This document shows positions 70 to 25,390 of a stretch of 35,946 nt of DNA, piece after piece (the first letter of the stretch is position 1; the number at the start of each line of letters is the position of its first letter). The position numbers were made by a program, and so were the translations under genes. This stretch comes from an uncultured Acetobacteraceae bacterium (GTDB lineage Bacteria; Pseudomonadota; Alphaproteobacteria; Acetobacterales; Acetobacteraceae), in NCBI GenBank assembly GCA_964249315.1, contig CAXUCM010000001.1, forward strand, positions 1 to 35,946. The letters are read 5' to 3'. A model generated the notes under the pieces. It saw only the letters and a list, made by a program, of their open reading frames with translations. It did not search any database and was not told the origin of the DNA.

Positions 70-1236
70 TCATATCACGTTCAATTCCTCGATCCGTGCA
101 CCGCGCCCCACCCGCTCCACCGAGAGCGGCGAAAGGTCAATGCTGCTGAATGCCCCCTGTGTGATCAGCTCGCACACGCCGCGGCCGGCGGCCGGCGAAT
201 GCTGCATGCCATGACCGCTGAAGCCGGCGGCAATCATGAAGTTATCCGTGCCCGGCGCCCAGCCGATCATGGCGTTGTGGTCGAAGGTATTCATCTCGTA
301 ATGTCCGGACCAGGCGCGGGTCATGCGTATGCGTTCGAATGCCGGAATCCGATGCGCCAGCGCCGGCCAGACGAATTCGTCGAACTGCGCGTAGTCGGGT
401 TCCAGATCCTCCGGATCGGCATCCGAACGCCAGGGCGGCCCGCCGGCGATGAAGCCGTCGCCTTCCGGACGCACGTAGAAGCCGCTGGCATCCACCACCA
501 GGGGCATGTCAGGCGGCGGATCCGGGCAGCGGAAGGCGAAGATGGTCCGCTTCTCCGGTGCGACGGGCAGGTACAGGTCCGCCCAGGCGGCCACCGCGGC
601 GGCCTGGGGTCCCGCCGCGTTCACGAACAGGTCTGCCGGGATGTTGCCGGACTGCGCCGTTCGCACGGCAACGATCCTGCCGCTCTCCCGTATCAGGCCG
701 ACGGCACTCTCCTTGAGAAAGGTGACCCCGAGGCTGCGCGCCTTCTTGCGGAACGCCTGCATCAGGCTGTAGCCGTCGAACCAGCCCTCGCCGGACACGC
801 CCAGCGCCCCCAGGCCCAGATCGTCCACGTTCAGCCAGGGGAACCGGGCCGCCAGGCTCGCGGGCGGCAGGCCGATGACCGGCACGTCGTTCTCCGTCTG
901 CAGGCGCAAGGCGGCCTCGAGCCCGGCCGTGCGTCCGCTCGGGGCAAGATAGAGATAGCCACGCTCGATGAGGCCGATCTCGGGCCTGTCCCCGTCGACT
1001 TCCAGGCGGTCGCCGACGCGACGCAGGAACTCGAAGCCATGACGAGACATGCTCATGCAGACGGGGGTGGTGAATTGCTGCCGGATCGAACTCGCTGACA
1101 ACGCCGAGGATGCCCGCGCGTAGCTGGGATCGCGTTCGAGCACCAGGATCGAGCGGTGACCGGATTCGGCCAGATGGAAGGCGATCGACGAACCGATGAC
1201 GCCGCCGCCGATGATGACGATGTCGGATCGCGTCAC
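70..1236 (-). CDS. FAD-dependent oxidoreductase, DAO/sarcosine oxidase-beta (FOXRED1/AgaE-like) family
   Basis: N-terminal IIGGGVIG dinucleotide motif, SALSASSIRQQF, C-terminal GFSGHGMQHSPAAGR. GTG start overlaps the SDR stop (GTGA). Confidence 0.9.
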   Translation of the reverse strand: MTRSDIVIIGGGVIGSSIAFHLAESGHRSILVLERDPSYARASSALSASSIRQQFTTPVCMSMSRHGFEFLRRVGDRLEVDGDRPEIGLIERGYLYLAPSGRTAGLEAALRLQTENDVPVIGLPPASLAARFPWLNVDDLGLGALGVSGEGWFDGYSLMQAFRKKARSLGVTFLKESAVGLIRESGRIVAVRTAQSGNIPADLFVNAAGPQAAAVAAWADLYLPVAPEKRTIFAFRCPDPPPDMPLVVDASGFYVRPEGDGFIAGGPPWRSDADPEDLEPDYAQFDEFVWPALAHRIPAFERIRMTRAWSGHYEMNTFDHNAMIGWAPGTDNFMIAAGFSGHGMQHSPAAGRGVCELITQGAFSSIDLSPLSVERVGRGARIEELNVI

Positions 1237-2006
1237 GTACGGGCCGGGACCGGCACGGTGTAGTTCAATCCGAGGCGGCCGCCGTCGGGATAGATCGTCT
1301 GGCCGGTGACGTAGGACGATTCATCGCAGGCGAGGAAGACGGCGATGCTCGCCACTTCCTCCGGTGCGCCGGTACGACCGAGGGGCGTGCGGCTCAGGAT
1401 CCGATCCTCCGCAGCGCGGTCGGTCATGATGGAGCGGGCAAGATCCGTCATGATTGTGCCTGGCCCGATCGCATTCACCCGGATCCCGCGCGGCGCGAGC
1501 GACAACGCGGACACGTTGGTAAGCTGTTTCAGGGCGCCCTTGGATACGGCGTACGGAATCTGGTTGGGTATTCCGAGGATTGCATTCACCGAAGACATGT
1601 TGATGATCACGCCGCCGGCCTTCATCAGTCGTGCAGCGTTCTGCGTTCCGAACAGCGCGGACTTGAGGTTGATCGCCATGACGCGATCGAAATCTTCTTC
1701 CGTCAGATCCAGCAGATCGGCCGCGTGCGTGACGCCCGCATTATTGACGAGGATGTCCAGGCCGCCCCAGCTCTCCGCGACGAACGTGAAAAGCGCGTCG
1801 ATCTCGGACTTCCTGGAAACGTCGGTTCGACGGGCGATTTGTCCGAGGCTGGCGGCCAGCTCCGCGTTCGCCGCCTCCGCGATGTCTGCCAGGATCACGG
1901 CGGCGCCTTCCCGGACGAAGGCCTGGGCGATCGCGCGACCGATCCCGTTCGCGGCCCCGGTGACGACGGCGCGTTTTCCAGCGAGACGCTTCATTCGGCT
2001 TGCCAT
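1233..2006 (-). CDS. Classical short-chain dehydrogenase/reductase
   Basis: TGAANGIG, NNAG, catalytic S...YAVSK, IRVNAIGPG, YVTGQTIYPDGG. Confidence 0.93.
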   Translation of the reverse strand: MASRMKRLAGKRAVVTGAANGIGRAIAQAFVREGAAVILADIAEAANAELAASLGQIARRTDVSRKSEIDALFTFVAESWGGLDILVNNAGVTHAADLLDLTEEDFDRVMAINLKSALFGTQNAARLMKAGGVIINMSSVNAILGIPNQIPYAVSKGALKQLTNVSALSLAPRGIRVNAIGPGTIMTDLARSIMTDRAAEDRILSRTPLGRTGAPEEVASIAVFLACDESSYVTGQTIYPDGGRLGLNYTVPVPART

Positions 2007-2110
2007 CTTTCTCTAGGCCCGACGACGGGATCCTACGATCGTATGGCGGCGTTGATGCTATGACCAGAAGTAGCAGATATTCCCTGGAGCCGGAGGCTGG
2101 TTCGCGGCGG

Positions 2111-3028
2111 CTACAAGACGGTTCCCGTCAGCACGCCGGCTGCCACGCAACTTTGCACCTGCTCGACGAGAAGTACCTGAAGTTCTTTCGTCAGCCGAGG
2201 GATCGGTCTGTGCAGCGGCGTTGCACAGACCAGGAGTGCGCTCAAGCCCTTCTTGAACGGTCGCGCCTGCAACTTGCCCTCGCTCACTTCCCGGAACACG
2301 GCGCCGTAGGGAAGGATGCAGCGCTCCGGCCCATCTTCCGCAACCTTTTTCAGGGTAGCGATGGAGTCGATCTCGGCGGTGACGTCGATCCTTATGCTGG
2401 GGAGCGACGCCGCGGCATCGACGACGCGACGCAGCCCGTTGGACGCGTTGGGCAGCACGAAGGGGCCGATACCGAGTTCGGCGATGTCGGCGGGCTCGCT
2501 GCAGCCGGGTGCAGCGGCGCTTTCGATAAGATAGAGATGCTCGCGCAGAAGCGGATTGACGAGGAGCGTGGGCGACAGCCTGGCATCGTAGAGAACGCCG
2601 ATATCCACCTTGCCCGCTTCGAGCATCTCCAGCAACGAGCCGCTGAAGGCCTCGATGACGCGCAACCGAGCCTTGGGGAAACGCCGGGTGAACGCGCGTG
2701 CCAGAGGCACCGCGAGGGATGCGCCGAGTGACGGCGGCAGACCCAACGTGGCCCAGCCTTTCGGCTGGTGCTGTCCGTCATCGAGCTCTTCACGCACGGC
2801 TTCAAGCTGGCCGAACACGGCGCGGGCCACCTCCTCGAGCCGGACTCCCGCCTCAGTCAGCCGCACGCCACGCCCGTGCCGGTAGAGCAATCGGCTGCCG
2901 ACATCCCCCTCGAGCAATTGCACCCGCTTGCTGATAGTCGGTTGGGTCAAGCCAAGCTTGATGCCTGCCCTGGTGAAACTGCCGTGCTCGGCGACGGCGA
3001 GCAGGAGCTTAAGCGCTTCGAAATCCAC
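2111..3028 (-). CDS. LysR-family transcriptional regulator
   Basis: N-terminal HTH (GSFTRAG...LTQPTISKRVQLLE...LLYRHGRGVRLTEAG) plus substrate-binding domain; 305 aa. Confidence 0.95.
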   Translation of the reverse strand: MDFEALKLLLAVAEHGSFTRAGIKLGLTQPTISKRVQLLEGDVGSRLLYRHGRGVRLTEAGVRLEEVARAVFGQLEAVREELDDGQHQPKGWATLGLPPSLGASLAVPLARAFTRRFPKARLRVIEAFSGSLLEMLEAGKVDIGVLYDARLSPTLLVNPLLREHLYLIESAAAPGCSEPADIAELGIGPFVLPNASNGLRRVVDAAASLPSIRIDVTAEIDSIATLKKVAEDGPERCILPYGAVFREVSEGKLQARPFKKGLSALLVCATPLHRPIPRLTKELQVLLVEQVQSCVAAGVLTGTVL

Positions 3029-3065
3029 AGGCCTACCGATCAGTACTCATGCAACATTCTTCCGA

Positions 3066-3086
3066 GGTATGTCTCCACGCTATACC
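3066..3086. promoter_or_regulatory. Candidate LysR-type operator (T-N11-A within a dyad)
   Basis: GGTAT-gtctccacgct-ATACC: a 5-bp inverted repeat whose inner T3070 and A3082 are separated by 11 nt, about 40-60 bp upstream of the LysR start. Confidence 0.45.
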
Positions 3087-3238: not shown

Positions 3239-4882
3239 TCACTGCGCTGTCGCCGCAATCAGGCCCCGACCGACGACATGCGCCTGGATCTCGGCAGCAC
3301 CCTCGAAGATGTTCAGGATCCGGGCGTCGCAGAGAATGCGGCTGGCTTCGTATTCCAGCGCATACCCGTTGCCGCCGTGGATCTGCACGTTAAGGTCCGC
3401 ATTGCACCAGGCCACGCGAGCGGCGAGCAGCTTGGCCATGCCGGCCTCGACGTCACACCGCCAGCCGGCATCCTTGGTCCGGGAGGCGGCGTAGGTCAGC
3501 TCGCGCGCCAGCACGATCTCCGTTGCCATAAGTGCCAGCTTGTCCGAGACGCGGGGGAACGCAGTCAGGGCGCGACCGAACTGGCGGCGCTCGGTCGCGT
3601 ATCGCAACGCAAGGTCGAAAGCGTTCCAGGCGACACCCACGGCGCGCGCCGCGGTCTGGATGCGCGCCCCCTCGAAGGTGCGCATCAGTTGCTGGAAGCC
3701 GCTCCCTTCCTGGTCACCCAGGATCGCGTCACCCTCGACCCGGAAGCCGTCGAAGGAAAGGACGTATTCCTTCATGCCGCGATAGCCGAGGACCCCGATC
3801 TCTCCGCCTTCCAGCCCGGCATCCGGAAAATCGCTGGCCTCGGTCCCGCGTGCCTTCGGCGCGAGCAGGATCGACAGACCGGCATGCCCTTGCCTCTGCG
3901 TATCGGTGCGTACCAGCATCGTCATCAGGTCCGCCCGCGCCGCATGGGTGATCCAGGTCTTGCTGCCATGCACCAGCCAGCCTGCGCCGTCTCGTCTTGC
4001 CCGTGTCCTCAGCGAGGCGAGGTCGGAGCCGGTGTCGGGCTCCGTGAAGACCGCCGTCGGGAGGATCTTGCCGGACGCGATGCCGGGCAGGAAGCGTGCC
4101 TTCTGCGTCGCCGTGCCGCTCGACGCGATCAGCTCGCCGGCGATCTCCGAGCGCGTGCCGAGCGATCCGGCGCAGATCCAGCCCCGGCTCAGCTCCTCGG
4201 AGACCACGCTCATCGCGAGCTTGCCGAGCCCGAGGCCGCCATACTCCTCCGCGATGCAGATGCCGAAGACGCCGAGCGCCGCCATCTCGGCGATGACGTG
4301 GTCCGGGATCAGGGCGTCGGCCAGATGCCAACCGTGCGCGTCGGGTGCGATCCGGCGGGCGGTGAAGCCGCGGAGCTCATCGCGTGCCATATCGAGCGCT
4401 GGATCGTCCAACGCCTCGCCGGGCCGTTCGCCATCCTGCAATCGCCGTGCGAGCTCGGCACGAGCGGCGGCCACGTTGCCCTCCTTGAGGAAGAGCTGCA
4501 CTGCCGGGTCGCCGGCCAGGATCGCCGCCGCCTCATCCAGCTCCAGCTCGGACGGCCGGACGAACTCGTTCTGGCTCATCGGAATGCCGCCGAGAAGCTG
4601 GCTCAGATACTCGCCGAAGCCGATCCGCAGAACCAGCACGTCCACCGCCTGCAGGCGTCCGGCATCCTCCGAAGCCGCCGCCCAGCCGCGCAACGCGCCG
4701 AGCGCGGCACTGGTGGTGGCGATCCAGGCCAGTCCGTGCAGCAGGCGCTGCTCGCGGTCGGCCAGGGCGGGATCCAAGCGTCCGCCAGGTGCCACGATCG
4801 CGGCAACGCCGGCGCAGGCGGCGTCGGTGAAGCGCGCCGCGGCATCGGCCGCCTGCTTCGCGTCAACCAGGAACCGGGTCAT
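3239..4882 (-). CDS. mcd: Acyl-CoA dehydrogenase, (2S)-methylsuccinyl-CoA dehydrogenase-like
   Basis: Start moved to ATG 4882 (MTRFLVD), 547 aa. N-terminal extension with [72 protein letters not shown] match my recollection of the Mcd subfamily. Confidence 0.8.
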
Positions 4883-4964: not shown

Positions 4965-6155
4965 TCACGCGACGATCCCCGTGTCGTGCAGGTGCCCGAT
5001 CTCGGCAGCTCCCATCCCGAGCAGCGTCTCCAGGACCAGGTCCGTATGCTGGCCGAGGCTCGGTGCGACCGAGGCCGAGCGAGGCTCACCGGGAAGACGC
5101 AGGGCCGAACCGGGCGTGAGGTAGGTGCCGCCGGGATGGCGGGTTTCGGCGAAGACGGGATTGTCCGTGAAGAAGCGCGCCTCGTTCGCGATCGCGCCGG
5201 CGAGCGTGTCGTAGCGCGACCAGCAGACGCCATGGCTGACGAAGCTGTCCGCCAGGTCCGCGACGCAGCGGGCCTGCACGGCGGCGGCGACGATTGGAAA
5301 GAGCCGATCGCGATGGACGAAGCGCCGGCCCTCGTCCAGGAAGGACACGGCGAGTTCCTCCTCGAGTGCCGAGACCGGGGTGCCGAGGTCGAGCGACTGC
5401 ACGAGCCCGGACCATTGCCGTGTGGTTATGGCGACGATCATCAAGCGGACGCCGTCCGCGGTCATGAAGTCCCGTCCGAACGCGCCGAACAGGTCGTTTC
5501 CGTGACGTGCCCGATCGCCGCCGCTGATGGTCTCGGCGAGGGATCCCAGGTGAGCCAGGGTCGCCGCGGCGAGGTCGGACAGAGCGAGCTGCACGTCCCG
5601 GCCTCGCCCCGTCCGCGCGCGGTCCCGCTCGGCCGCGAGCAGGGCGAACGCGCCATAGGCTCCGGCGACGAGGTCCCACGCGGGCAGCACGTGATTGACC
5701 GGGCCCGGGTCGTCTGCGGGACCGGTCATCATCGGCACGCCGATCGCGGCATTGATCGTGTAGTCGACCGCCGGCGTGCCGTCCGCCCAGCCCTTGATGC
5801 GCAAGCAGATGAGATCATGCCGGAGCTTCGCGAGCGCGTCGTAGGAGAGGAAGCCGCGTTCGGGGAAGCTGGTGACGAACAGACCGTCGCCTGCCGTGGC
5901 GATCCGCTGTGCAAGCCGCCGGCCGGCCGGTTCGGACAGGTTGATCGCGATCGACTGCTTGGCCTTGTTCAGCCCCTCCCAGTAGAAGCTCGTCCCGTCT
6001 TCCGCCCTGGGCCATCGCCATCGATCGGGACCGCCGCCGATCTGATCGAAGCGTACGACCGTGGCGCCGAGCTGGGCGAGGTGCAGGCCACAGGAGGGGC
6101 CGGCGATGAACGCGGCACCCTCCACCACCGTCATGCCGCTGAGCAACCCATACAT
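4965..6155 (-). CDS. mct: Family III CoA transferase, mesaconyl-CoA C1-C4 transferase (2-methylfumaryl-CoA isomerase)-like
   Basis: [11 protein letters not shown]...[46 protein letters not shown] (catalytic Asp), [14 protein letters not shown]. These are Mct-subfamily signatures rather than generic CaiB ones. Confidence 0.8.
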
Positions 6156-9820: not shown

Positions 9821-9824
<4 letters not shown>

Positions 9825-15112: not shown

Positions 15113-16225
15113 CTAGGCGGCAGCTCGCTTCGAGCTGCAATAGTTCCTGAGCTTGGGCATAACCTCGTGGGCGAGGAGTCGCATGGACTTCTTGTGAACC
15201 TCAGGCTTCTCCCACTCCTTGAACGTCGAGATCAGCGCTCCGAAAGAGCCTCCGACCCGGTCGACGACGTCGACCAGCCTGTCGAGAACGGTTGACGGCG
15301 AACCGGAAATGACCAGCGTGTCGACGCAGTATTTGGGTGTGACGGCCTCGTCCGGCACGGACGGGTCGGCCTTGAGGACACCCACCAGGTTAAAGAATCT
15401 CATGTCGTCGACCAGGAACCGGAATTGACACTCGTAGGCGTTGTCTTCCTCGGCCAAATAGTCGCGCGCCTCGGCATCCGTGTCGGCCACGAGGATCGAC
15501 CTCGAGATCCGCCAGTCCTGCCGGTTCGGTCGCCGGCCGACGCGCTCGCACCCGATGACGTACTGCTCCCAATGTGTTGCGGCCGAGTCGAGCTGGGCGA
15601 AGTTGCCGGAGAGGATGCCCCACCCGCGCTCGCCTGCCTGCGCGGCGCTCTTGGATTTCGGCGACATCACGGACGTCACGACGGGCGGGAACAGCTTCTG
15701 ATAGGGCTTCAACATCGGACCGAACCCAAGCTGTGGCACGATCTGATCCTTGATCTTTACGTTCCAGTACTTTCCCTCGATGTCGTAGGGAGGATCGGAA
15801 GACCAGATCTTGTGGATCATCTCCACGGATTCGAGGACCATCTCGCCGCGATTCTTGTCCAGCACGTCGAAAAGTTCCAGGTCGCTGACCTGCGCCCCGG
15901 GACCGACGCCCATGATGAAGCGCCCGCGCGACATGTGATCGAACATCGCCACATCCACCGCGACCTTCGCGGGATGATAGATCGGCAAGGAGATCACGGC
16001 GGTGGCGAACTTGATCTGTTTCGTCGAGTGGATCAACGAGGCACAGAATTGAAGCGGATTGGTGACGAGCTCGATGCTGGACGATTGATGCTCACCGACC
16101 CAGGCTTCGTCGAACCCCATCTGGTCGGCGAATATGATCGCCTCGCGGCATTCATCGAGCATGTCGGCCGGATGGCGCGACAGATCGCGATTCTGGATCG
16201 GATGCATGAAAAGGCCGAGATCCAT
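15113..16225 (-). CDS. Luciferase-like (LLM) flavin-dependent monooxygenase
   Basis: ADQMGFDEAWVGEH, TKQIKFATAVISLPIYHP, FDHMSRGRFIMGVGPG, SMRLLAHEVMPKL. GGAG SD. Confidence 0.9.
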   Translation of the reverse strand: MDLGLFMHPIQNRDLSRHPADMLDECREAIIFADQMGFDEAWVGEHQSSSIELVTNPLQFCASLIHSTKQIKFATAVISLPIYHPAKVAVDVAMFDHMSRGRFIMGVGPGAQVSDLELFDVLDKNRGEMVLESVEMIHKIWSSDPPYDIEGKYWNVKIKDQIVPQLGFGPMLKPYQKLFPPVVTSVMSPKSKSAAQAGERGWGILSGNFAQLDSAATHWEQYVIGCERVGRRPNRQDWRISRSILVADTDAEARDYLAEEDNAYECQFRFLVDDMRFFNLVGVLKADPSVPDEAVTPKYCVDTLVISGSPSTVLDRLVDVVDRVGGSFGALISTFKEWEKPEVHKKSMRLLAHEVMPKLRNYCSSKRAAA

Positions 16226-16365: not shown

Positions 16366-17850
16366 CTACGCGAACCTCATGATTACCGACTTGGTTTCCA
16401 GATACTCTTCCATCTGTTCCGATCCGCATTCCCGGCCGAGACCGCTGGTCTTGTAGCCTCCGAACGGAACCGCCGGATCGAGGCCGCCATACGTATTTAC
16501 CCAGACCGTACCTGCCCGCACGGCTTTCGCCATTCGGTGCGCGGTTGCCAGACTTCGGGTCCAGACCCCGCTTCCCAGCCCGAAATGGGTCGCATTGGCG
16601 ATGCTGGCTGCCTCCTCGAAGGTGTCGAAGGGCATCGCGCACACCACCGGTCCGAAGATTTCCTCCTGGGCGGTTCTCATCTCGTTCGCGACCTTCGAGA
16701 GAATGGTCGGCTGGATGAAAAACCCGTCCTCGTAGGCACCGGACACCAGCCGTTGGCCGCCGGCGACCGCTTCCGCCCCCTCCTGGATACCGAGCGCGAT
16801 GTAGCCGGTCACCCGCTCCATCTGCTTCCGGTTGATCAGGGGACCGATCTGGGTGGCCGGATCGGCACCGTCTCCGACCTTGAGGCCTTCCGCAAAATCC
16901 GAGAGAGCCTGGATGAACTCTTCGAACACGGGTCTCTCGATGAGCAGCCGCGTGCCGGCGGTGCAGGATTGTCCGGTGTTCGCGAAGGCGCCCATCGCCG
17001 CTCCCGGGACGGCCAGATCGAGGTCGCAATCCTTGAAGACGATGTTCGGGGACTTCCCGCCCAGCTCGAGCGTCAGCCGCTTCATGTTCCCCTGGGACGC
17101 TTCGATGATCTTTCGCCCGACCGCCTCGGAACCCGTGAACGAGACCTTGTCGACGTCGAGATGCGACGCCAGCGCCGCACCTGCCGTGTGACCGGGTCCG
17201 GTGACGATGTTCACGACCCCGTCTGGTACCCCCGCCTCCAGCAGCAATTCGCCCAGTCGAAGCGCCGTCAGCGACGCATCTTCCGCCGGCTTCAGCACCA
17301 GCGTGCAACCGGTGGCGAGAACCGGCCCGATCTTCCACATCGTATGGACGACCGGTCCATTCCACGGCGTGATCGCACCGACAACCCCGACCGGCTCTTT
17401 CAGCGTGTAGGCGAAAACCTCGCCGGGAAAGGAGTGCGGCGGCGTCGCGCCGCGTATGGCGGTGCACATGCCGGCATAGAACCGCAGCAGCCCGAGAACG
17501 CGCTGCCTGCGAGTTCTCGACACCGTGATCGGAACCCCCATATCGAGCATGTCGGTGACAGCCAGCTCTTCAAAGTTCGCGTCGACCAGCTCGCTGAAGC
17601 GAAGGATGCAGGCCTGGCGCTCGAACGGCGTGAACCTGCTCCAGGGTCCGACGAACGCCCGACGGGCCGCGGCGACAGCGAGATCGATGTCAGCGTCGCC
17701 TCCTTCCGACACACGCGCGAGAAGGTCTCCCGTCGCCGGATTACGCGTCTCGAAGCTACGTCCGGAAATCGACGGAACCCACTTGCCGTCTATCAACAAG
17801 AGCCTCGGCAACGGATCCAGGGTGAATTTCGCACCACCATCCATGTCCAT
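16366..17850 (-). CDS. NAD-dependent aldehyde dehydrogenase
   Basis: GAITPWN, KPAE, SFTGS, LELGGKSP (Glu), GQSCTAG (Cys), EEIFGPV, PFGGYKTSG. Confidence 0.95.
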   Translation of the reverse strand: MDMDGGAKFTLDPLPRLLLIDGKWVPSISGRSFETRNPATGDLLARVSEGGDADIDLAVAAARRAFVGPWSRFTPFERQACILRFSELVDANFEELAVTDMLDMGVPITVSRTRRQRVLGLLRFYAGMCTAIRGATPPHSFPGEVFAYTLKEPVGVVGAITPWNGPVVHTMWKIGPVLATGCTLVLKPAEDASLTALRLGELLLEAGVPDGVVNIVTGPGHTAGAALASHLDVDKVSFTGSEAVGRKIIEASQGNMKRLTLELGGKSPNIVFKDCDLDLAVPGAAMGAFANTGQSCTAGTRLLIERPVFEEFIQALSDFAEGLKVGDGADPATQIGPLINRKQMERVTGYIALGIQEGAEAVAGGQRLVSGAYEDGFFIQPTILSKVANEMRTAQEEIFGPVVCAMPFDTFEEAASIANATHFGLGSGVWTRSLATAHRMAKAVRAGTVWVNTYGGLDPAVPFGGYKTSGLGRECGSEQMEEYLETKSVIMRFA

Positions 17851-17903: not shown

Positions 17904-19475
17904 TCACGAAGGCACCAGGCTCAACGCATCGACAGGAGCCCGGACGCCGAGCAACCGCCGGTACTCGGACCAGAACTCCGCAACGGCTTCAGCGCGAGCC
18001 TGCTCCGACAGGCGAAGCTCCATGGCAAGCACCGATGCCGCCCGTTCCACTTCAGCTTCTGTGAAGCTGTGGCGCCAGGCAAGGCCGGTCCGTCGGAACA
18101 GTAAGTCCACGAGCGTTACCGCGTGCTCCTCGGTAATCGCGTGCTGAAGATCCGACAGGCGCGTGGACCCGACGCCGGGTATGAACGGCGGCGAGTTGTC
18201 GTTGACCGGAGGGAGCTTCGGCCCGAAGTCCGGCGATCGTGGTGCCCGACGCGCCTTGAGCCGGCGGCCAACCTCGGATGCCAGCAGCGCACCCCCGGAT
18301 CTGTAGCTGGTGATCGGGCCTGCCGTCATCGCCACGACATTCGGGAGGCCGTCATCAAGAAGGTCGTGGACCTGGCGCGAACGGTTTCCGAAGGGTATTG
18401 CCGGGTCGTAGGTCAGAGGTCGAACGCCGGCCCAGGTCAACACGATGTCTTTGGGCGATAGATGGATGCCCGGCATCAAGCGGTTGGCCTCGTCCAGAAG
18501 CCATGCCTGCTCCGCCGCCGTCACGGCGATGTCATCCTTGTCGCCTTCGTAGATCGTTTCCGAAGGGCCGAAGAAGTGGAGGTCATGCCAAGGTACGCAG
18601 TAGAAAGGCTCGCTCTTCGTGTTCAACGTGGCCACGCCGCGGCCGACATAGTCATGCGGCAACTTGACGACGATGTGCGTGCCCTTCGTGCCCAGGACGC
18701 GCTTTCGCGCTGCTGGGGCCGCCTTGCGACTGATCTCGTCGAGCCATATCCCCGCCGTATTCAGAACGACGTTTGCGCGCACTCTTGCTTTACGTCCGTC
18801 GAGTTCATCTGCCAGCTCTATGCTCCAGAGCCCGTCCGGATCCCTCTTCTCGAGGGTCGCGGACGTATAATTTCTGCACGTCGCTCCCAGCCGGATGGCA
18901 TCCAGGATGCAATCCATGCAGACGCGCTCCGGCCAGTCGAACTCATACTCGTCGTACGTCGCCACCGACTTGAGCTGCTCCAGGTCTCGAAGCTCGTTCG
19001 TGAGAGGCTCGTCCCTCGCCTTCGCCGCGGAGATACGCCGGTAGTTCAGCCGAGGTCCCCTCGGCCAAAGCAACTTCAACACGACGAATGCAATATCGAT
19101 CTGCCAGCCGAGATAAGGCCCGCCTTTGTAGATGGGGAAAGAGAACGTCATCCGTCGGGCTCGCGCGGACGTATCTTCGACGAACTTCGCCCTGGCTTCC
19201 ATGCAGGCGCGTGCCATCCTCAGCGAGGTCACCAGCCGCGAGGGATGCCGAACGAAGTCCCACAGCGATCGTCCGGGCGCCAGGTATCGCAAGCCGCAAT
19301 GCAGAAGACGGCTGGATCTGCTCGTGGAGCCGGAACCATAATCCGACTTCTCGACGAGCAGTACGTCGTATCCCTCTGCCGCGATCCTCTGCGAAGCTGC
19401 AGCACCGTTGATGCCGCCGCCGATGATCAGGACGTCAAACTCTCGACCGTCGAGTTCATCCAGCTGCTGTCGCAC
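17904..19475 (-). CDS. GlpD/EryB-like FAD-dependent oxidoreductase (divergent)
   Basis: IIGGGINGA, GSTSRSSRLLHCGLRYL, NTAGIW, KGTHIVV, TWAGVRPL, C-terminal EHAVTLVDLLFRRT. Confidence 0.85.
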   Translation of the reverse strand: MRQQLDELDGREFDVLIIGGGINGAAASQRIAAEGYDVLLVEKSDYGSGSTSRSSRLLHCGLRYLAPGRSLWDFVRHPSRLVTSLRMARACMEARAKFVEDTSARARRMTFSFPIYKGGPYLGWQIDIAFVVLKLLWPRGPRLNYRRISAAKARDEPLTNELRDLEQLKSVATYDEYEFDWPERVCMDCILDAIRLGATCRNYTSATLEKRDPDGLWSIELADELDGRKARVRANVVLNTAGIWLDEISRKAAPAARKRVLGTKGTHIVVKLPHDYVGRGVATLNTKSEPFYCVPWHDLHFFGPSETIYEGDKDDIAVTAAEQAWLLDEANRLMPGIHLSPKDIVLTWAGVRPLTYDPAIPFGNRSRQVHDLLDDGLPNVVAMTAGPITSYRSGGALLASEVGRRLKARRAPRSPDFGPKLPPVNDNSPPFIPGVGSTRLSDLQHAITEEHAVTLVDLLFRRTGLAWRHSFTEAEVERAASVLAMELRLSEQARAEAVAEFWSEYRRLLGVRAPVDALSLVPS

Positions 19476-19661: not shown

Positions 19662-21116
19662 TCAGAGCCGCCCGATCCCGGCATAGACGGTCGGTCGCAC
19701 CTTTCGATAGAAGGCCGCCACGGCGAGGCCCGCTGCAGGAACCGAGATGACGGCGATGATGGATGCCAAGCCCATCGCTCGAGTGCCGACGAGCACACTC
19801 AGGTTCAACGATGTTATGATGAATAGCGCGCCGATCCCGAGTGCGGACAAGGCTGGGGCGATGAGCCGCGTCCAGAGAGTCGCGTCGATCGATCGATGTC
19901 GTTGATAGAACACGACGACGGAGCAGCTCGTCGCGATGAGAAGCGGCAAGAGAAAGTAGATTCCCATCCCCGTGATCGCCGCGTAGGAAGCCACCGGACT
20001 GATCCCGAGTTTCGTGATCCCTGTCAGCACGCACAGGCTCAGCGCGGAGACGGTCAAGATGGCGGCATGTGGCGACTGGAGACGGGGGTGAACGCGACCG
20101 AGCCAGACCGGCAACACGCGCGCCCGTGCCAGGGAGAAGAGATAGCGCCCGGCCGAACCCTGGACGGAGATCGACGCGATCATCTGGCTGGTGACCAGAG
20201 TCAAGGCAGTAAGTTTGGCAAAGACCGATCCCAGATAGAAGCTCACGCTATCGAAAAAAGACCCTACCGGATTCGTGGTCGCGATCAGGCTGACTTTCGA
20301 CGGGCCTTCCGCAACGATGTACAACCAGGTTCCGAGAGCGTAGAACAGCGTCATGAAGATGACGGCGATGTAGGTGGCTCGTCCGACATTCCTCTCGGGA
20401 TCGATCGTCTCCATGCTGAAGCAAGCGCCGGCTTCTATGCCGATCATGCAAAGCATCGCGAACAGGACGCCGAGGGACGGGGAGCCGTGCAGGAAAGCGC
20501 TCGGGGCGAAGGACGTCAATGAATAGCCTTCCGGGCCGCCTCTGATAAGAGTCGCTGCTTGCCAGAGTGCCACGATACCGACCTCCAGACACACGAGCTT
20601 CCCGAGGACTTTGATCGACGTGTCGATGCGAAGCACGCTGACAGCTGTGACGACCAGGAGAAAGATCAGGGCCCACTCGAGCCAGGAAAAAAGCGGTCGT
20701 CCGACCAGGTGCGTGGCGCAGTCGGCGGCGATCAGGCCCATGTAAGGGTATGATCCTACGCTCATCAAGAGGTAGGCCGACGCGGCAAGAAAGGCCCCGG
20801 CAAGTCCCAGCGGCCTCCCGGACCCCAGGACGATGAACTGATAGAACGCTCCCGGGTTCTCGATGAAGCGGCTCATGCCGACGAACCCTGTCGAAAAGGT
20901 CAGGAGGAGTGCGCCCGCGACGAGAAATGAGACCGGTGCGCCGATGCCGTTTCCGAAACCGATGGAGAGCTGCGCGAAGCCCGCCATGACGGCGAGCGGC
21001 GCGTTGAACGCGACGATGATCAACACCAGTGCCGACACGCCGAGTCGCCGAGGCAGGCTTCCGGGATCGGTGGCGTCCCTGGATCCCGGAACCGACAGCA
21101 CATGCTCGGTGGTCAA
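19662..21116 (-). CDS. APC-superfamily amino acid/amine permease
   Basis: Many hydrophobic helices, NPGAFYQFI..G.GR, G.EA...FSME...P.RNV, RYLFSLAR.RVLP.WLGRVHPRLQSPH. TTG start. Confidence 0.9.
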   Translation of the reverse strand: MTTEHVLSVPGSRDATDPGSLPRRLGVSALVLIIVAFNAPLAVMAGFAQLSIGFGNGIGAPVSFLVAGALLLTFSTGFVGMSRFIENPGAFYQFIVLGSGRPLGLAGAFLAASAYLLMSVGSYPYMGLIAADCATHLVGRPLFSWLEWALIFLLVVTAVSVLRIDTSIKVLGKLVCLEVGIVALWQAATLIRGGPEGYSLTSFAPSAFLHGSPSLGVLFAMLCMIGIEAGACFSMETIDPERNVGRATYIAVIFMTLFYALGTWLYIVAEGPSKVSLIATTNPVGSFFDSVSFYLGSVFAKLTALTLVTSQMIASISVQGSAGRYLFSLARARVLPVWLGRVHPRLQSPHAAILTVSALSLCVLTGITKLGISPVASYAAITGMGIYFLLPLLIATSCSVVVFYQRHRSIDATLWTRLIAPALSALGIGALFIITSLNLSVLVGTRAMGLASIIAVISVPAAGLAVAAFYRKVRPTVYAGIGRL

Positions 21117-21199: not shown

Positions 21200-22786
21200 T
21201 CAAGCCGACTGCCTGACGAAGTCCGCGACCCGTTCGCCAATCATGATCGCCGGTGCGTTCAGATTGCCTGAGGGGATGCTGGGTATGATGGACGTGTCGG
21301 CGACCCGAAGTCCACGCAGGCCATGCACCCGCAAGGAGGGATCGACGACGGAAAGCTCGTCCGTGCCCATCTTGCAAGCCCCGCAAGGATGGTAGGCACC
21401 CTGCGCCTTCTGGCGCACGAAGCCTTCCCGGTCCGCCTGCGAACGCAAGCGTTGCGCGGACAGCGAGTCCTGACCGATATGTCGCACCATCGCCGGCTGG
21501 CTCATCACCTCTTGGCCGATCCTGACGCCCTCGGCGAGACAACGTACGTCTTCAGGGTCGGAGAGGTAGTTCGGACGGATCACCGGGGGGGCGAGCGGAT
21601 CGCTCGAGCGCAACATGATCGTCCCGCGGGACCGGGGCCGCGACTGGCTTACGGCCAGGCCGCATCCCCTGCCGCTCGGAACTCCCTCCATGCCGTCCTC
21701 GACGGCGGAACCCGGAAAGAAGAAAGCCTGCAGATCCGGCAGGGAACCCGCATCCTTGCCGTACCAGAATGCGCCACCCTCGATGACGTTCGAGGTTGCC
21801 GGACCGGATCGGAAAAGGCCGTATTCGAGCGCCGCCCAGGCCTGCCAGGCAGGATTGCGATATTTGTCGAAGCTGTCGCCGCCGTGAAGGTCGTAGAGCA
21901 TGTATATGATGGCGTGATCATGCAGATTATGGCCGACGCCGGGAAGATCGTGCGCGACCGGTATGCCTTGAGCTCTCAGGTGATCGGCAGGTCCGATACC
22001 GGAGCGCAGCAGCAGATGCGGGGAACCGATGGCGCCCGCGCAGAGGACGACCTCCCGATCCGCCCGCGCGATGGCGACCTTCCCGTGCCTGACATATTCG
22101 ACGCCGACCGCACGGTCACGCTCGACGATGATCCGAAGCACCCGAACACCACTCATGACTTTCAGCCCCCGGCGGCGTCGCCGGGCTCGCAAGTAGGCCA
22201 CCGCGCTGCTCCGGTGACCGTGGCGTGTGGTCAGCTGATAGAGACCGCAGCCTGCCTGCGTCCCCGAGTTGAAATCTGCATTCGGCGCGATGCCGGCCTC
22301 GTGACAGGCACGGAGCCAGGCCTTCGTCAGAGGATGCGTGTAACGCTGGTCCGACACGCCGATCGGGCCGCCGGTGCCGTGTGCCGCGCCACCGAGAGAC
22401 TCGTTGTCTTCAGCCCGCCTGAAGTATGGAAGCACCTCCTGGTAACTCCAGCCGGAACAGCCCATCTCGTTCCAGCCGTCGTAATCTTCCGGACAACCAC
22501 GAATATAGACCAGACCGTTTACCGAGCTGCCGCCACCGAGTATGTTCGCCTGCACCATCGGAGCGAGGCTCGAAGCGGCGTTTCCGCTCCCGTCCAACTG
22601 GTAGTGCTTCAGCTTGTCGCTCTTGTAGAGCTTCGAGTACGCTGCCGGCACGTGAAGATAGAGGTTGAAGTCTCGGCCACCCTGTACGAGGAGCAGCACG
22701 GACGCGTCACGATCCTCGCTGAGCCTGGAGGCAGCCACGCAACCGGCCGAGCCGCCTCCGACGATGATGTAGTCCGTCATTGTCAC
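21200..22786 (-). CDS. GMC oxidoreductase (choline dehydrogenase-like)
   Basis: DYIIVGGGSAG, LGGGSSVNGLVYIRG, GAIGSPHLLLRSGIG, VGHNLHDH, YHPCGACKMG, VADTS, GNLNAP. Confidence 0.93.
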   Translation of the reverse strand: MTMTDYIIVGGGSAGCVAASRLSEDRDASVLLLVQGGRDFNLYLHVPAAYSKLYKSDKLKHYQLDGSGNAASSLAPMVQANILGGGSSVNGLVYIRGCPEDYDGWNEMGCSGWSYQEVLPYFRRAEDNESLGGAAHGTGGPIGVSDQRYTHPLTKAWLRACHEAGIAPNADFNSGTQAGCGLYQLTTRHGHRSSAVAYLRARRRRRGLKVMSGVRVLRIIVERDRAVGVEYVRHGKVAIARADREVVLCAGAIGSPHLLLRSGIGPADHLRAQGIPVAHDLPGVGHNLHDHAIIYMLYDLHGGDSFDKYRNPAWQAWAALEYGLFRSGPATSNVIEGGAFWYGKDAGSLPDLQAFFFPGSAVEDGMEGVPSGRGCGLAVSQSRPRSRGTIMLRSSDPLAPPVIRPNYLSDPEDVRCLAEGVRIGQEVMSQPAMVRHIGQDSLSAQRLRSQADREGFVRQKAQGAYHPCGACKMGTDELSVVDPSLRVHGLRGLRVADTSIIPSIPSGNLNAPAIMIGERVADFVRQSA

Positions 22787-23005: not shown

Positions 23006-25390
23006 TCAGAAGCGTGTCCCGATTGCCGCCGTTATCGTCAACGGCTCACCGTACTGACGCAGCGCAAAGCCGGCATACACGACATCGAAGGCACCGACCT
23101 GGTTCAACCGACTGAAGGCGTTGTCGACGTTGAATTGCAGATACCAGCTCCGAGGCGCATCCACACGAAGCCAGAAATTGGCAAGCGCATAGGGAGGTGC
23201 ACGGTCGAGCGGGATGTTAAGCAGGTTGTAGTAGGTCTGTCCGACATATCGGCCGGTATAGCCGAGAGTGAGTCCGAAGGCGTGACCCAGGTTGAAGAAC
23301 TTCGACGCGCCCCAGTTGAAGGCAGTCCGCGGCGCCAGGTTCGGCCGCTGACCCTCACCGTTCGGCGCGCCGTTGACGTCGCGAACCAGGAAGTGGTTGT
23401 ACTCCGCGTTGGCGAACAGCGTCACGGTCGGTAGCGGGCGAGCATTTACTTCGACGTCATAGCCGTAGGCCGTCGCATCCTTGTCGATGACCGTCGCTAT
23501 GATGCCATCGAACAGGAAATTCTGATTGTTGTGGTAGTCATAGTAGTAGCCGGTAGTGTTGATGGTCAATCGCTTGTTGAAGAACTGCGCCTTTTCGCCA
23601 ATCTCGCCGTCATAAAGCTGTTCCGGCGCGTAGGCGACCCCTCCCGGTGGTATCTCAGCGCCGACGGGCGCGGTAAACCCCCCTGCCTTGAACCCCTTGT
23701 TGAGACTTGTATATAGAAGAAGGTTATTGTACGGCTGGTAGTTGAGCTCTATCTTGCCGCTCCAGTCGCCATCCGAGGTGCTCTCTCGATAGCCGTTGAC
23801 GCTCGGTATGCCGATGATCGGAAACACGCTGTCTCCGGAGGGACCGAGATCTCCGGAGCCACAGGCCCCGATCGCGTCCTCGTAACAATGGTCGTTAAGG
23901 TGCAAGCGTTCTTGATCTGCGCTGTAACGAGCGCCGAGAATGAACGTAACCTGCTTGCTTATCTGATACTCTCCTTGCGAATAGACAGCCTCGGACACGG
24001 TCCTGACCTGATAGTTGTTCTCGGTGTCCTGGTGCGGGATATCTCCCGGACCCTCGAAGACTGGAACGATGTTATAGTTGGAGTAATCTCCATCGATGTA
24101 GAGAAAGTAGACCCCGGCCGTGTAGTGGAAGCGGCCAGTCGAGCCGGTCAACCGGAACTCCTGCTGCGCATCGAAGGCCCGGGACTGGACACCAGCCTCG
24201 AACTCGTTGATCGGCGTCGAGTCGGTATCCTCGCGGTAAACGGCACGGTCATAGGCGGCAGCTGTCACCGACGTGAACTTGTTGTTGCCGTTCAGCTGAT
24301 AATCGACCGTCGCCGACAACGTATCCGTGGCGTTGTTGTCTGCCCCGGGGTCGTTGAGCGCCACCTTGAGATCACTGACCGGATACGGGTTGCGATAGCC
24401 GTAGAAGTCGCCGCCGGGCACGCCGTACGCGTTGACATTTGGCGGCAAGAGTACGTCGACGCCTGCGCTATTGGTATAGGCCGGCGTCGAGATGTATCCG
24501 GGCGCAGTCCTGGTCTCGTTGAAGCCCTGGAAGCGGACCGTGACCGTCGTTGCGTCGGACGGCGTATATCGGAGCTGATCGCGATAGGCGAAGACCTCGG
24601 AGTTGCCGCGGTTCGCCCCGAGCACGTTATCGATGAAGCCCTGTTGCGTCTGGTAGTAGAACGAGAAGCGGTTCGCGACCCTGTCATTGCCGAGATCGAG
24701 AACGCCCTGGAGCCTGTACAAGTCGCGCGAGCCGGTTGCCGCCTCGATCGCACCGCTGAAGCCTGGAAGCGGCGGTGCACTGATGTATTGGATCGCGCCG
24801 CCGGTTGCGTTGCGCCCGAACAACGTACCTTGCGGGCCACGCAGGACTTCGACGCGCTGCAGATCGAACAGCGGAATCGAGGCGGCGGTCGCGAACGGGC
24901 TGTAGACACCATCCGTATAGGCGGCGTTCGGCTGCTCCTCGTGATCCGAGACGTCAGACTCGCCGACACCGCGAATTACGAACGTCGCGACGCCAGCGCC
25001 GGTCGACGTCGTGGCGTTCACACCCGGCACCAGCCTCTCCAGCTCCTCCGCGGACTGGATGTTGTTGCGTCCCAGCGTCGCACCGGATAGCGCGGTGAGC
25101 GAGACACCGACCTTCTGGGCCGGTTGCTCACGACGGTTCGCCGTGACGACGACATCCTCGCTCGGGTTTGCGCTTGCTGGCGCACCCTTCGTGACGGCTG
25201 ACGAAGTTCCTTTCGTTGCCGGCACCTTCGCCGCCCGGTTGCCGGGCTGAGCCGCCGCAGCGGCTGCGGACTGCCCGTTCGAAGGCTGAACCGGCGTCGC
25301 TTGTGCAAAAGCGGAGACTGAGGACATCAGGCTCAGTGACGACGTGATGGAAAGCAGTCCCACCCACCGCGATGCAGCGAAAGCCGTCAT
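23006..25390 (-). CDS. TonB-dependent outer-membrane receptor
   Basis: Start moved to ATG 25390 (AGGGAG SD). Signal peptide ending AFAQ, TonB-box-like EDVVVTA, plug motif RVEVLRGPQGTLFGRNATGG, C-terminal Phe. Confidence 0.93.
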   Translation of the reverse strand: MTAFAASRWVGLLSITSSLSLMSSVSAFAQATPVQPSNGQSAAAAAAQPGNRAAKVPATKGTSSAVTKGAPASANPSEDVVVTANRREQPAQKVGVSLTALSGATLGRNNIQSAEELERLVPGVNATTSTGAGVATFVIRGVGESDVSDHEEQPNAAYTDGVYSPFATAASIPLFDLQRVEVLRGPQGTLFGRNATGGAIQYISAPPLPGFSGAIEAATGSRDLYRLQGVLDLGNDRVANRFSFYYQTQQGFIDNVLGANRGNSEVFAYRDQLRYTPSDATTVTVRFQGFNETRTAPGYISTPAYTNSAGVDVLLPPNVNAYGVPGGDFYGYRNPYPVSDLKVALNDPGADNNATDTLSATVDYQLNGNNKFTSVTAAAYDRAVYREDTDSTPINEFEAGVQSRAFDAQQEFRLTGSTGRFHYTAGVYFLYIDGDYSNYNIVPVFEGPGDIPHQDTENNYQVRTVSEAVYSQGEYQISKQVTFILGARYSADQERLHLNDHCYEDAIGACGSGDLGPSGDSVFPIIGIPSVNGYRESTSDGDWSGKIELNYQPYNNLLLYTSLNKGFKAGGFTAPVGAEIPPGGVAYAPEQLYDGEIGEKAQFFNKRLTINTTGYYYDYHNNQNFLFDGIIATVIDKDATAYGYDVEVNARPLPTVTLFANAEYNHFLVRDVNGAPNGEGQRPNLAPRTAFNWGASKFFNLGHAFGLTLGYTGRYVGQTYYNLLNIPLDRAPPYALANFWLRVDAPRSWYLQFNVDNAFSRLNQVGAFDVVYAGFALRQYGEPLTITAAIGTRF

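What the first reader, a model, noticed from the sequence alone, without database searches (positions are those of the whole stretch)
70..25390. Candidate undescribed catabolic pathway for a methyl-branched (hydroxy)proline/pyrrolidine, funnelled through methylsuccinyl-CoA and mesaconyl-CoA
Seen: one co-directional cluster, with several coupled junctions, joins proline-type enzymes to C5-dicarboxylyl-CoA enzymes and dedicated uptake (TonB receptor, APC permease). Known: bacterial AcnX dehydrates cis-3-hydroxy-L-proline to Delta1-pyrroline-2-carboxylate; OCD/mu-crystallin homologs reduce it to proline; 5-oxoprolinase opens the lactam to glutamate; SucA-type E1 starts conversion of 2-oxoglutarate to succinyl-CoA; Mcd oxidises methylsuccinyl-CoA to mesaconyl-CoA; Mct swaps CoA between C1 and C4. 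Inference: plain proline would need no extra E1, Mcd or Mct, but a substrate with one more methyl needs all three. Proposed route: hydroxy-methylproline, methylproline, methyl-5-oxoproline or methylglutamate, methyl-2-oxoglutarate, methylsuccinyl-CoA, mesaconyl-CoA. Natural candidates include 3-hydroxy-4-methylproline (echinocandins), 4-methylproline (cyanobacterial and fungal peptides, apple) and 3-methylproline, or a larger pyrrolidine alkaloid trimmed by the upstream oxidases. I know of no described pathway with this combination. Missing from the window: E2/E3, ETF, flavin reductase, aminotransferase, mesaconyl-CoA hydratase and lyase.
Basis: partly seen in the sequence, partly recalled or inferred. 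Interest (0 to 1): 0.88.

Follow-up and report, generated by a model that had tools for sequence, protein, structure and literature searches.

The report
Breakdown pathway for methyl-branched proline
This bacterium carries a 16-gene cluster built around an unusual second copy of a Krebs-cycle enzyme that recurs in other bacteria beside methylsuccinyl-CoA enzymes, and that likely lets it break down methyl-branched proline or glutamate relatives by a route that was not found described.

Summary
All 16 genes are present, co-directional and partly coupled. The E1 belongs to a separate, monophyletic SucA-like subfamily (152 sequences, seven diagnostic substitutions). It recurs beside Mcd, an Mct-like transferase and a LysR in 10 of 17 long metagenome loci (0 of 79 ordinary-SucA control loci) and in Azospirillum brasilense Sp7. 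Itaconyl-CoA-hydratase and citramalyl-CoA-lyase relatives often sit alongside; this genome holds them elsewhere, with SucB/Lpd, and no Ccr was found. Mcd keeps every residue for a C1-thioester with a C2 methyl, which favours 3-methyl-2-oxoglutarate (isoleucine skeleton) over the 4-methyl isomer. Oxoprolinase maps to the E1 branch holding the window; AcnX shares contigs with that branch by length matching only. The six upstream genes (TonB receptor to LLM) are compositionally foreign and form their own module elsewhere, so one 16-gene pathway is not established. No substrate is shown, and the echinocandin residue has the wrong stereochemistry for AcnX. Verdict: likely an undescribed catabolic module with an unannotated E1 specificity, testable in Sp7.

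The parts
23006..25390 (-). TonB-dependent receptor (upstream block; link to the pathway not established)
   Evidence: Pfam Plug + TonB barrel; ATG 25390 with SD-like motif; best plasmid hits 30-32%
21200..22786 (-). GMC-family FAD oxidoreductase (upstream block)
   Evidence: 50-60% relatives lie beside LLM relatives in A. larrymoorei and M. loti
19662..21116 (-). APC-family amino acid/amine permease (upstream block)
   Evidence: best plasmid hits 33-38%
17904..19475 (-). Glycerol-3-phosphate-dehydrogenase-like flavoprotein (upstream block)
   Evidence: below all curated cut-offs; 62% relative in Paraburkholderia lacks the other genes
16366..17850 (-). Aldehyde dehydrogenase (upstream block)
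   Evidence: 57% relative near the LLM relative in A. larrymoorei
15113..16225 (-). LLM flavin monooxygenase, closest solved relative 3,6-diketocamphane monooxygenase; 7 nt upstream of AcnX
   Evidence: shares contig lengths 102,525 and 58,480 with AcnX relatives
13855..15105 (-). Aconitase X large subunit, type-IIa-like (3-hydroxyproline-dehydratase type)
   Evidence: equivalents of Asp203, Cys273, Glu292, Ser293, Cys508, Lys530, Tyr534 kept; Ile206 is Leu, Cys510 is Tyr
13431..13853 (-). Aconitase X small (swivel) subunit
   Evidence: catalytic Ser70 kept; Trp35 is Tyr, Cys71 and Thr72 are Ser
12505..13437 (-). Delta1-pyrroline/piperideine-2-carboxylate reductase (OCD/mu-crystallin family)
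   Evidence: NF004793 347.8 bits, cut-off 322
9821..12379 (-). E1*: divergent SucA-like thiamine-diphosphate E1, proposed methyl-2-oxoglutarate dehydrogenase
   Evidence: 39% identical to the genome's own SucA on C21
6171..9824 (-). Fused hydantoinase/oxoprolinase (ATP-dependent lactam hydrolase family)
   Evidence: only copy found in the genome; 55-61% relatives are common on plasmids
4965..6155 (-). Mct-like family III CoA transferase
   Evidence: TIGR04253 390 bits, cut-off 725; closest solved structures 7XKG/8APQ; Arg47, Tyr136, Asp165 kept, Leu43 is Pro
3239..4882 (-). (2S)-methylsuccinyl-CoA dehydrogenase (long, Mcd-type)
   Evidence: 633 bits to 6ES9; all eight residues named for PdMCD kept
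2111..3028 (-). LysR regulator that travels with E1*
   Evidence: 19 of 44 metagenome E1* loci; distance correlation with E1* rho 0.88
1233..2006 (-). SDR dehydrogenase, coupled to the DAO gene
   Evidence: 78-81% relatives in L131 and L132
70..1236 (-). DAO-family flavin amine oxidoreductase, likely a cyclic imino-acid dehydrogenase
   Evidence: 54% relative beside piperideine-6-carboxylate dehydrogenase; 45% relative beside SDR and PxpABC
1..52 (.). Genome-wide REP-like double hairpin just after the last gene; the contig ends in it

Best explanation
The ten genes from AcnX to the DAO oxidase likely break down a methyl-branched (hydroxy)proline, and their conserved core, a divergent E1 that recurs with Mcd, an Mct-like transferase and a LysR, likely converts methyl-2-oxoglutarate (more probably the 3-methyl isomer) to methylsuccinyl-CoA and mesaconyl-CoA. 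Inferred steps: AcnX dehydrates a cis-3-hydroxy-methylproline; the reductase gives methylproline; DAO oxidises the C5-N bond; SDR oxidises the hydrated imine to the lactam; oxoprolinase opens it to methylglutamate; a host transaminase gives the 2-oxo acid; E1* with borrowed SucB/Lpd gives methylsuccinyl-C1-CoA; Mcd gives mesaconyl-C1-CoA; the transferase moves CoA to C4; Ich/Meh and Ccl, encoded elsewhere, yield pyruvate and acetyl-CoA. Shown here: gene content, co-conservation, residues. Inferred: every reaction. My odds: core acts on a methyl-2-oxoglutarate 0.7; 3-methyl rather than 4-methyl 0.65; pyrrolidine-carboxylate feeder in this lineage 0.6; the six upstream genes serve the same substrate 0.35.
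For: E1* is a monophyletic group of 152 sequences with none of 77 ordinary SucA inside it (support 0.957). It has seven columns fixed differently (S191, P232, T283, G336, W338, S543, M700, plus A103 away from the site) while both histidines, Tyr233, Ser253 and the Mg-binding Asp are kept. The genome keeps a normal sucA-sucB-lpd operon. Of 44 metagenome loci with E1*, 17 are 10 kb or longer; Mcd, Mct-like and LysR each occur in 10 of the 17, against 0 of 79 ordinary-SucA loci. The same set is in A. brasilense Sp7, A. doebereinerae, G364 and G714. Itaconyl-CoA-hydratase relatives lie in 10 and Ccl relatives in 5 of the loci examined, which points to a C4 sink after the transferase. Mcd keeps Ser248, Arg252, Ala285, Phe287, Arg376, Glu380, Thr418, Arg421, the pocket described for the C2 methyl of a C1 thioester. 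No Ccr over cut-off and no long MaoC protein were found in the 87%-complete genome, so Mcd is not explained by the ethylmalonyl-CoA pathway. All 4 oxoprolinase-bearing loci fall in the 33-member branch that holds the window (support 1.0); 0 of 19 other long loci have one. DAO + SDR sit beside a non-homologous oxoprolinase (PxpABC) in Haematobacter. Four of 23 closest E1* share exact contig lengths with close AcnX relatives, 0.065 expected by chance. The E1* N-terminus on the host SucB core gave weak support: score 0.60, best of 3 controls 0.00, partner pLDDT 49-51, runs agreeing in at least 70% of contacts; at 0.60 or under, 5 of 78 solved complexes and all 4 passing mismatches of 180 reached the mark, and likeness to solved complexes may explain it.
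Against: No activity, growth or expression data. AcnX, the reductase and the six upstream genes were found in 0 of 44 metagenome E1* loci; their link to E1* outside this window rests on contig lengths, not on DNA I read, and the reductase was not tested that way. Most E1* loci carry other feeders (TRAP + ApbA-like reductase + ALDH + GlcD-like oxidase; molybdo-hydroxylase + amidohydrolases; F420 genes), so proline is not intrinsic to the core. L122, L126 and L130 pair E1* with a short acyl-CoA dehydrogenase and, in L122 and L126, a benzoate-CoA-ligase relative. The transferase fails the TIGR04253 cut-off and has Pro where known intramolecular enzymes have Leu/Ile. The SDR family is unspecific: of 26 class-level relatives (49-61%), none had DAO within 1.5 kb and one had a hydantoinase. 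The genome has a second Mct-like + Mcd pair with no E1* on its 6-kb contig, so the pair can serve other inputs. No aminotransferase is in the cluster. Natural 3-methylprolines are rare peptide constituents.
Confidence: 0.5

Rival explanations
1. Same module, 4-methyl series (leucine skeleton: 4-methylproline, 4-methyl- or 4-methyleneglutamate, 2-methylglutarate). E1* makes methylsuccinyl-C4-CoA and the transferase first moves CoA to C1 so that Mcd can act.
For: Intramolecular transfer on a saturated dicarboxylyl-CoA before dehydrogenation has precedent (ThnP). The transferase differs from Mct at position 43. AcnX differs at Trp35 and Ile206, the residues that contact ring C4-C5; Trp is kept in two plasmid relatives. 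4-methyl compounds are commoner in plants and cyanobacteria (recalled).
Against: With an Ich/Meh + Ccl sink the transferase would have to act twice. A one-step C4-specific dehydrogenase is known and this genome has a cluster arranged like that one on C41, which would make Mcd + Mct unnecessary. Leu at position 206 is general in the AcnX clade (115 of 119). The echinocandin-type residue is trans, which AcnX rejects (descriptor recalled).
Confidence: 0.2
2. All 16 genes are one pathway for a larger N-heterocyclic amino-alcohol (iminosugar or alkaloid) that GMC, ALDH, the GlpD-like enzyme and the Baeyer-Villiger-type LLM trim to the hydroxy-methylproline.
For: All co-directional; LLM ends 7 nt before AcnX. 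An LLM relative (71%) shares contig lengths with E1* and AcnX in one other lineage (102,525 and 4,753,037) and another with AcnX alone (58,480). Amine-type uptake fits an N-heterocycle.
Against: Tetranucleotide distance ranks at the 95th percentile of 93 contigs for 15.1-25.1 kb against the 60th-61st for 1-15 kb. LLM + GMC + ALDH recur on A. larrymoorei and M. loti plasmids with serine deaminase, glycerate kinase or malate synthase and without AcnX or E1*. Only 1 of 23 close E1* matched an LLM contig length.
Confidence: 0.2
3. Ordinary cis-3-hydroxyproline/proline/5-oxoproline use via glutamate, with a spare SucA, next to an unrelated methylsuccinate or itaconate cassette.
For: E1* passes the NCBIfam SucA cut-off (820.7 against 764) and keeps the OGDH-type pocket residues. 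AcnX relatives of about 51% lie in a hydroxyproline cluster.
Against: E1* is a separate clade, rare (1 of 400 class and 1 of 400 family genomes), and tied to Mcd and the transferase, with correlated divergence (rho 0.50 and 0.44; kin are not independent). A housekeeping SucA is present.
Confidence: 0.07
4. Pipecolate-type pathway: a six-membered imino acid goes to 2-aminoadipate and 2-oxoadipate, with E1* as a bacterial counterpart of DHTKD1.
For: The DAO relative in Ralstonia sits beside a piperideine-6-carboxylate dehydrogenase over cut-off. The reductase model covers piperideine-2-carboxylate too.
Against: At all four positions where DHTKD1 differs from OGDH the window's E1* is OGDH-like: Phe160, Tyr233, Phe321, Glu649. 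Glutaryl-CoA would need neither Mcd nor Mct.
Confidence: 0.03

Closest known systems
2-oxoglutarate dehydrogenase E1 (SucA) and human DHTKD1 (2-oxoadipate E1 that interacts with the OGDH E2, DLST)
   Same: Same domains; catalytic histidines and Mg-binding Asp kept; stands as an E1-only paralogue beside a housekeeping complex.
   Different: 39% identical to the host SucA; seven fixed substitutions near active-site motifs; lacks the four DHTKD1-specific changes; linked to Mcd and Mct-like genes.
Ethylmalonyl-CoA pathway Mcd (Paracoccus/Rhodobacter) and 3-hydroxypropionate-bicycle Mct (Chloroflexus, Roseiflexus)
   Same: Closest solved structures; substrate-pocket residues kept.
   Different: Used together in a catabolic setting; no Ccr found; the transferase has Pro43 and scores under the curated cut-off.
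Pseudomonas/Cupriavidus itaconate-methylsuccinate cluster (Ict, Ich, Ccl, C4-specific Mcd, MmgE/PrpD)
   Same: Same likely end steps, mesaconyl-C4-CoA to citramalyl-CoA to pyruvate + acetyl-CoA.
   Different: That route starts from free C5 diacids with a short C4-thioester dehydrogenase; here the thioester would come from a C6 2-oxo acid and a long C1-type Mcd.
cis-3-hydroxy-L-proline pathway (AcnX type I/IIa + Delta1-pyrroline-2-carboxylate reductase)
   Same: Split AcnX with the amine-binding Asp and two conserved cysteines of type IIa, coupled to the reductase.
   Different: Substitutions at Trp35, Thr72, Ile206; a further cysteine conserved in 119 of 119 relatives; no hydroxyproline epimerase genes in the window; continues to a lactam hydrolase and E1*.

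Membership tests
SucA (2-oxoglutarate E1) | Curated score cut-off | tested here: inconclusive
   NF006914 820.7 over 764; TIGR00239 696.2 under 770
SucA (2-oxoglutarate E1) | Invariant motifs (Met before HRGR, DVKYH Lys, HGD Gly) and grouping with housekeeping SucA | tested here: not met
   M, K, G in 77 of 77 controls; S, P, T in the window; separate clade
SucA (2-oxoglutarate E1) | Catalytic and carboxylate-binding His, Tyr, Ser, Asp | tested here: met
   His193, Tyr233, His234, Ser253, Asp284, His650; roles of the E. coli His260/His298 equivalents are recalled
SucA (2-oxoglutarate E1) | Turns over 2-oxoglutarate with E2/E3 | not testable with these tools
   needs assay
DHTKD1-type 2-oxoadipate E1 | Tyr190, Ser263, Tyr370, Asp707 | tested here: not met
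   Phe160, Tyr233, Phe321, Glu649
(2S)-methylsuccinyl-CoA dehydrogenase (Mcd) | N-terminal extension of about 170 residues; Ala285/Phe287 shift; Arg252, Arg376, Glu380, Arg421 | tested here: met
(2S)-methylsuccinyl-CoA dehydrogenase (Mcd) | Part of the ethylmalonyl-CoA pathway (Ccr in the genome) | tested here: not met
   no match over the TIGR01751 cut-off in an 87%-complete genome; incompleteness limits this
Intramolecular mesaconyl-CoA C1-C4 transferase (Mct) | Asp165, Arg47, Tyr136 | tested here: met
Intramolecular mesaconyl-CoA C1-C4 transferase (Mct) | Leu/Ile43 gate and TIGR04253 cut-off | tested here: not met
   Pro43; 390 under 725. Works-like claim stands; membership is not claimed
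[quoted passage not shown] | Split subunits, Ser70, Asp203, Cys273, Glu292, Cys508, Lys530, Tyr534; no Cys449 or Cys510 | tested here: met
[quoted passage not shown] | Complete conservation of substrate contacts (Trp35, Thr72, Ile206) | tested here: not met
   Tyr, Ser, Leu (conservative changes); Supplementary Fig. 8 of PMC8184944 was not looked at
AcnX type IIb mevalonate-5-phosphate dehydratase | Ala47/Ser50 phosphate site and third cysteine at 283(L) | tested here: not met
   Asp, Leu and Thr at those positions
Delta1-pyrroline-2-carboxylate reductase | Curated cut-off | tested here: met
   NF004793 347.8 over 322
ATP-dependent 5-oxoprolinase (fused type) | Hydant_A_N + Hydantoinase_A + Hydantoinase_B in one chain | tested here: met
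   substrate range not testable

The most novel reading that the evidence does not exclude
E1* defines an unrecognised bacterial subfamily of methyl-2-oxoglutarate dehydrogenases that dock on the host SucB/Lpd and form a hub through which several methyl-branched C6 compounds (here a 3-methylproline series, passing through an imine-to-lactam-to-glutamate detour) reach citramalyl-CoA. Databases currently label these genes as ordinary SucA.
Probability: 0.45. Interest if true: 0.78.

Novelty: new variant of a known kind. Interest (0 to 1): 0.64.

Why it matters
It would add a new substrate class to the 2-oxoacid dehydrogenase E1 family and a natural source of methylsuccinyl-CoA outside the ethylmalonyl-CoA pathway. 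It would give a first role to Mct-like genes in heterotrophic proteobacteria and a first catabolic route for methylprolines or methylglutamates from microbial peptides. The core is present in the tractable strain A. brasilense Sp7 (AMK58_RS26080-26100), so the central claim can be tested with a few purified enzymes. An E1 that accepts a branched 2-oxoglutarate would also be useful in synthetic C5-dicarboxylate pathways.

Tried and rejected
The single genome-contig scan picked universal SucA motifs: 1 of 80 loci was an E1* (L034); the other 79 served as controls. Genome samples found E1* in 1 of 400 (class), 1 of 400 (family), 0 of 401 and 0 of 321 (order and family of G809); only 2-3 candidates per genome were scored and the strict threshold misses partial copies such as G024. 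No locus from the window's own 24-member clade was obtained, so AcnX synteny could not be read directly. AcnX was not found in 15 genus mates. Rows dropped: L139 and L153 (pattern match, no E1); E1 sequences under 600 aa were left out of the tree. The SDR as a pathway marker was rejected. Promoter and terminator scan of 11.5-26 kb was at chance level. Earlier scan findings: nothing in 3 look-ups. Homarine pathway: no oxoprolinase, hydantoinase or luciferase-type gene mentioned in its main text. Siderophore anhydromevalonate via AcnX was rejected because hydration is at C3 and needs no E1, and the residues are not MVA5P-type. Steroid-glycoalkaloid ring fragments were rejected because they would give methylglutaryl-CoA; Sphingobium TomTYG64 relatives are scattered and that plasmid had no E1* among listed hits. 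PMC6017585 added nothing. Ten literature searches listed no paper on this combination; the library holds only open-licence PMC and bioRxiv papers.

Full report
Observation. The window is the whole of contig C1 of an unnamed, 87%-complete genome. Tight junctions are LLM-AcnX (7 nt), AcnX large-small (1), small-reductase (7-nt overlap), E1-oxoprolinase (2), oxoprolinase-transferase (15) and SDR-DAO (4-nt overlap). The last gene is followed by a repeat found 421 times (35 nt or more) on 273 contigs, at which the contig ends.

The E1 is not a spare SucA. The genome has a normal sucA-sucB-lpd operon on C21, 39% identical to the window's E1. The best 120 database relatives fall into a close group (55-66%) and a wider group (44-49%). 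In a tree of 229 sequences of at least 600 residues, 152 form one clade (support 0.957) with none of the 77 ordinary SucA inside. Columns nearly fixed in SucA differ throughout this clade (window residues S191, P232, T283, G336, W338, S543, M700, A103), while His193, Tyr233, His234, Ser253, Asp284 and His650 are kept. At the four positions where human DHTKD1 differs from OGDH (PMC7340257, passages) the window is OGDH-like. NCBIfam would still name it SucA. I call the clade E1*. It is rare: 1 of 400 class genomes, 1 of 400 family genomes, 0 of 401 and 0 of 321 around G809. Named relatives of the close group are Sphingopyxis sp. and a Sphingomonas bacterium.

A conserved core. A motif scan of metagenomes gave 46 loci, 44 with E1. 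Over all 44: LysR 19, Mct-like 13, Mcd 12, SDR 6, oxoprolinase 4, DAO 3. Among the 17 loci of 10 kb or more, Mcd, Mct-like and LysR each occur in 10; among 79 ordinary-SucA loci (66 of 10 kb or more) none occurs. E1*-Mcd-LysR-SDR-Mct is annotated on A. brasilense Sp7 plasmid p3 and present in A. doebereinerae and G364; G714 has the set without SDR; a Pseudorhizobium plasmid has a more distant E1 beside a 64% Mcd. Pairwise identities of E1* correlate with LysR (rho 0.88, n 17), Mcd (0.50, n 17) and Mct-like (0.44, n 14); relatives are not independent, so this shows joint inheritance at most. Relatives of itaconyl-CoA hydratase lie in 10 distinct loci and Ccl relatives in 5, out of 56 stretches scanned; L131 carries its own SucB-like E2. 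The window's genome has such hydratases on C41 and C513, a Ccl over cut-off on C43, ETF and flavin reductases. No Ccr over cut-off and no long MaoC protein were found.

What the core likely does. The acyl-CoA dehydrogenase scores 633 bits to 6ES9, whose numbering matches the PdMCD residues in PMC5798300 (passages); all eight named residues, including the Ala285/Phe287 pocket for the C2 methyl, are kept. That enzyme type acts on the C1 thioester, whereas the Pseudomonas enzyme acts on C4 (PMC12290011, passages; PMC13491972, passages). The transferase is closest to Mct and keeps Arg47, Tyr136 and Asp165, but has Pro at Leu43 (PMC9813914, passages); several E1*-linked relatives have Ile there. 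By inference, E1* acting on 3-methyl-2-oxoglutarate would give methylsuccinyl-C1-CoA directly, and Mcd, the transferase, hydratase and lyase would each act once. The 4-methyl isomer would need two transfers or would bypass both genes through a C4-type dehydrogenase. A transfer-first order has precedent (PMC11659651, passages), so I put the odds at 65:35. A predicted complex of the E1* first 100 residues with three copies of the host SucB core gave weak support (0.60; best of 3 controls 0.00; partner pLDDT 49-51; at least 70% contact agreement; at this level 5 of 78 solved complexes and all 4 passing mismatches of 180 reach the mark, and memory of solved complexes may contribute).

The feeder in this lineage. 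All four oxoprolinase-bearing loci (L131, L132, L145, L149) fall in the 33-member branch containing the window's 24-member clade (support 1.0), and 0 of 19 other long loci have one. L131 and L132 also carry DAO (62%) and SDR (78-81%). In Haematobacter, DAO (45%) and SDR (51%) precede PxpABC, an unrelated 5-oxoprolinase; in Ralstonia a 54% DAO relative follows a piperideine-6-carboxylate dehydrogenase. The best solved relative of DAO is 1Y56_B, which I recall as an archaeal proline dehydrogenase subunit. This suggests imino acid to cyclic imine to lactam to open amino acid. Against weight on the SDR: 0 of 26 class-level relatives had DAO beside them. AcnX is type-IIa-like (PMC8184944, parts 1-4 of 7 and passages; its supplements were not looked at) with conservative changes at three substrate contacts. 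It was absent from all 44 metagenome loci, none of which belongs to the window's own clade. For that clade, 4 of 23 E1* share exact contig lengths with close AcnX relatives (0.065 expected); the wider group gave 2 of 96 (0.2 expected), one of them in the 33-member branch; two more matches appear among cluster members. This is indirect. [quoted passage not shown] (2S,3R)-3-hydroxy-3-methylproline, made from isoleucine, occurs in polyoxypeptin (PMC3943440, passages) and by my reading of the descriptors has the cis arrangement. It fits the chemistry; nothing shows it is the natural substrate.

The upstream six genes. From about 15.1 kb to the contig end the DNA is atypical for the genome (95th percentile of 93 contigs, against 60th-61st for 1-15 kb), with lower GC per gene (0.60-0.64 against 0.64-0.70). 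The LLM, closest to 3,6-diketocamphane monooxygenase, has 88-89% relatives, far closer than any E1* relative. LLM + GMC + ALDH recur on A. larrymoorei and M. loti plasmids with other downstream genes. Yet LLM matches AcnX on two contig lengths and E1* on one. The block may trim a larger amino-alcohol for this pathway or may be a separate acquisition; I give 0.35 to the first.

Novelty. Every enzyme belongs to a known family, but ten searches of the open-licence library (listings only unless cited above) showed no description of this E1 clade, of E1 with Mcd and Mct, or of methylproline catabolism; subscription journals are not covered. I rate it a new variant of a known kind, interest 0.64: a well-supported unannotated module whose substrate is inferred and whose core can be tested directly in A. 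brasilense Sp7.

Noticed in passing
window 1-52, 27886-27932, 31732-31782: A 52-nt double-hairpin repeat with 421 copies (35 nt or more) on 273 contigs, 101 of them near contig ends; it probably explains the fragmented assembly.
   Followed up: partly
window 25782-26485: Two short ORFs match consecutive parts of glycoside hydrolase family 1, a broken gene; next come an HSL esterase, GH2, a cellulase-like and an FGE-domain gene in the same atypical region.
   Followed up: no
G000:C239:183-5823 (L001): A second Mct-like + Mcd pair (56% and 67%) between a thiolase-like ORF (judged by eye) and an MFS-like ORF, with no E1* on the contig.
   Followed up: partly
G000:C41:2650-9084 (L170): Itaconate/methylsuccinate-type cluster (acyl-CoA dehydrogenase, CoA transferase, hydratase, PrpD-like) whose lyase gene is interrupted by stops; an intact Ccl lies on C43.
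   Followed up: partly
L180:10837-16145 (Haematobacter massiliensis pOT1-1): DAO + SDR + pxpABC + LysR: a candidate plain proline or pipecolate route through the lactam, without E1*.
   Followed up: partly
L122, L126, L130: An E1* sub-group paired with a short acyl-CoA dehydrogenase, branched-chain ABC transport and, in L122 and L126, a benzoate-CoA-ligase relative; possibly a different substrate.
   Followed up: no
window AcnX large subunit, residue 301: A cysteine three residues before the type-IIb ligand position is conserved in 119 of 119 relatives and could be a third Fe-S ligand.
   Followed up: no
L162 (A. larrymoorei pTi) and L164 (M. loti pML2037): An uncharacterised LLM + flavin reductase + GMC + ALDH + amine-oxidase module with serine deaminase/glycerate kinase or malate synthase, suggesting catabolism of a hydroxylated amine.
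   Followed up: partly
L033:6683-11730 (G024): Mcd + Mct-like beside a partial E1* (44% of the query) with an IS transposase nearby; looks like a decayed copy of the module.
   Followed up: no
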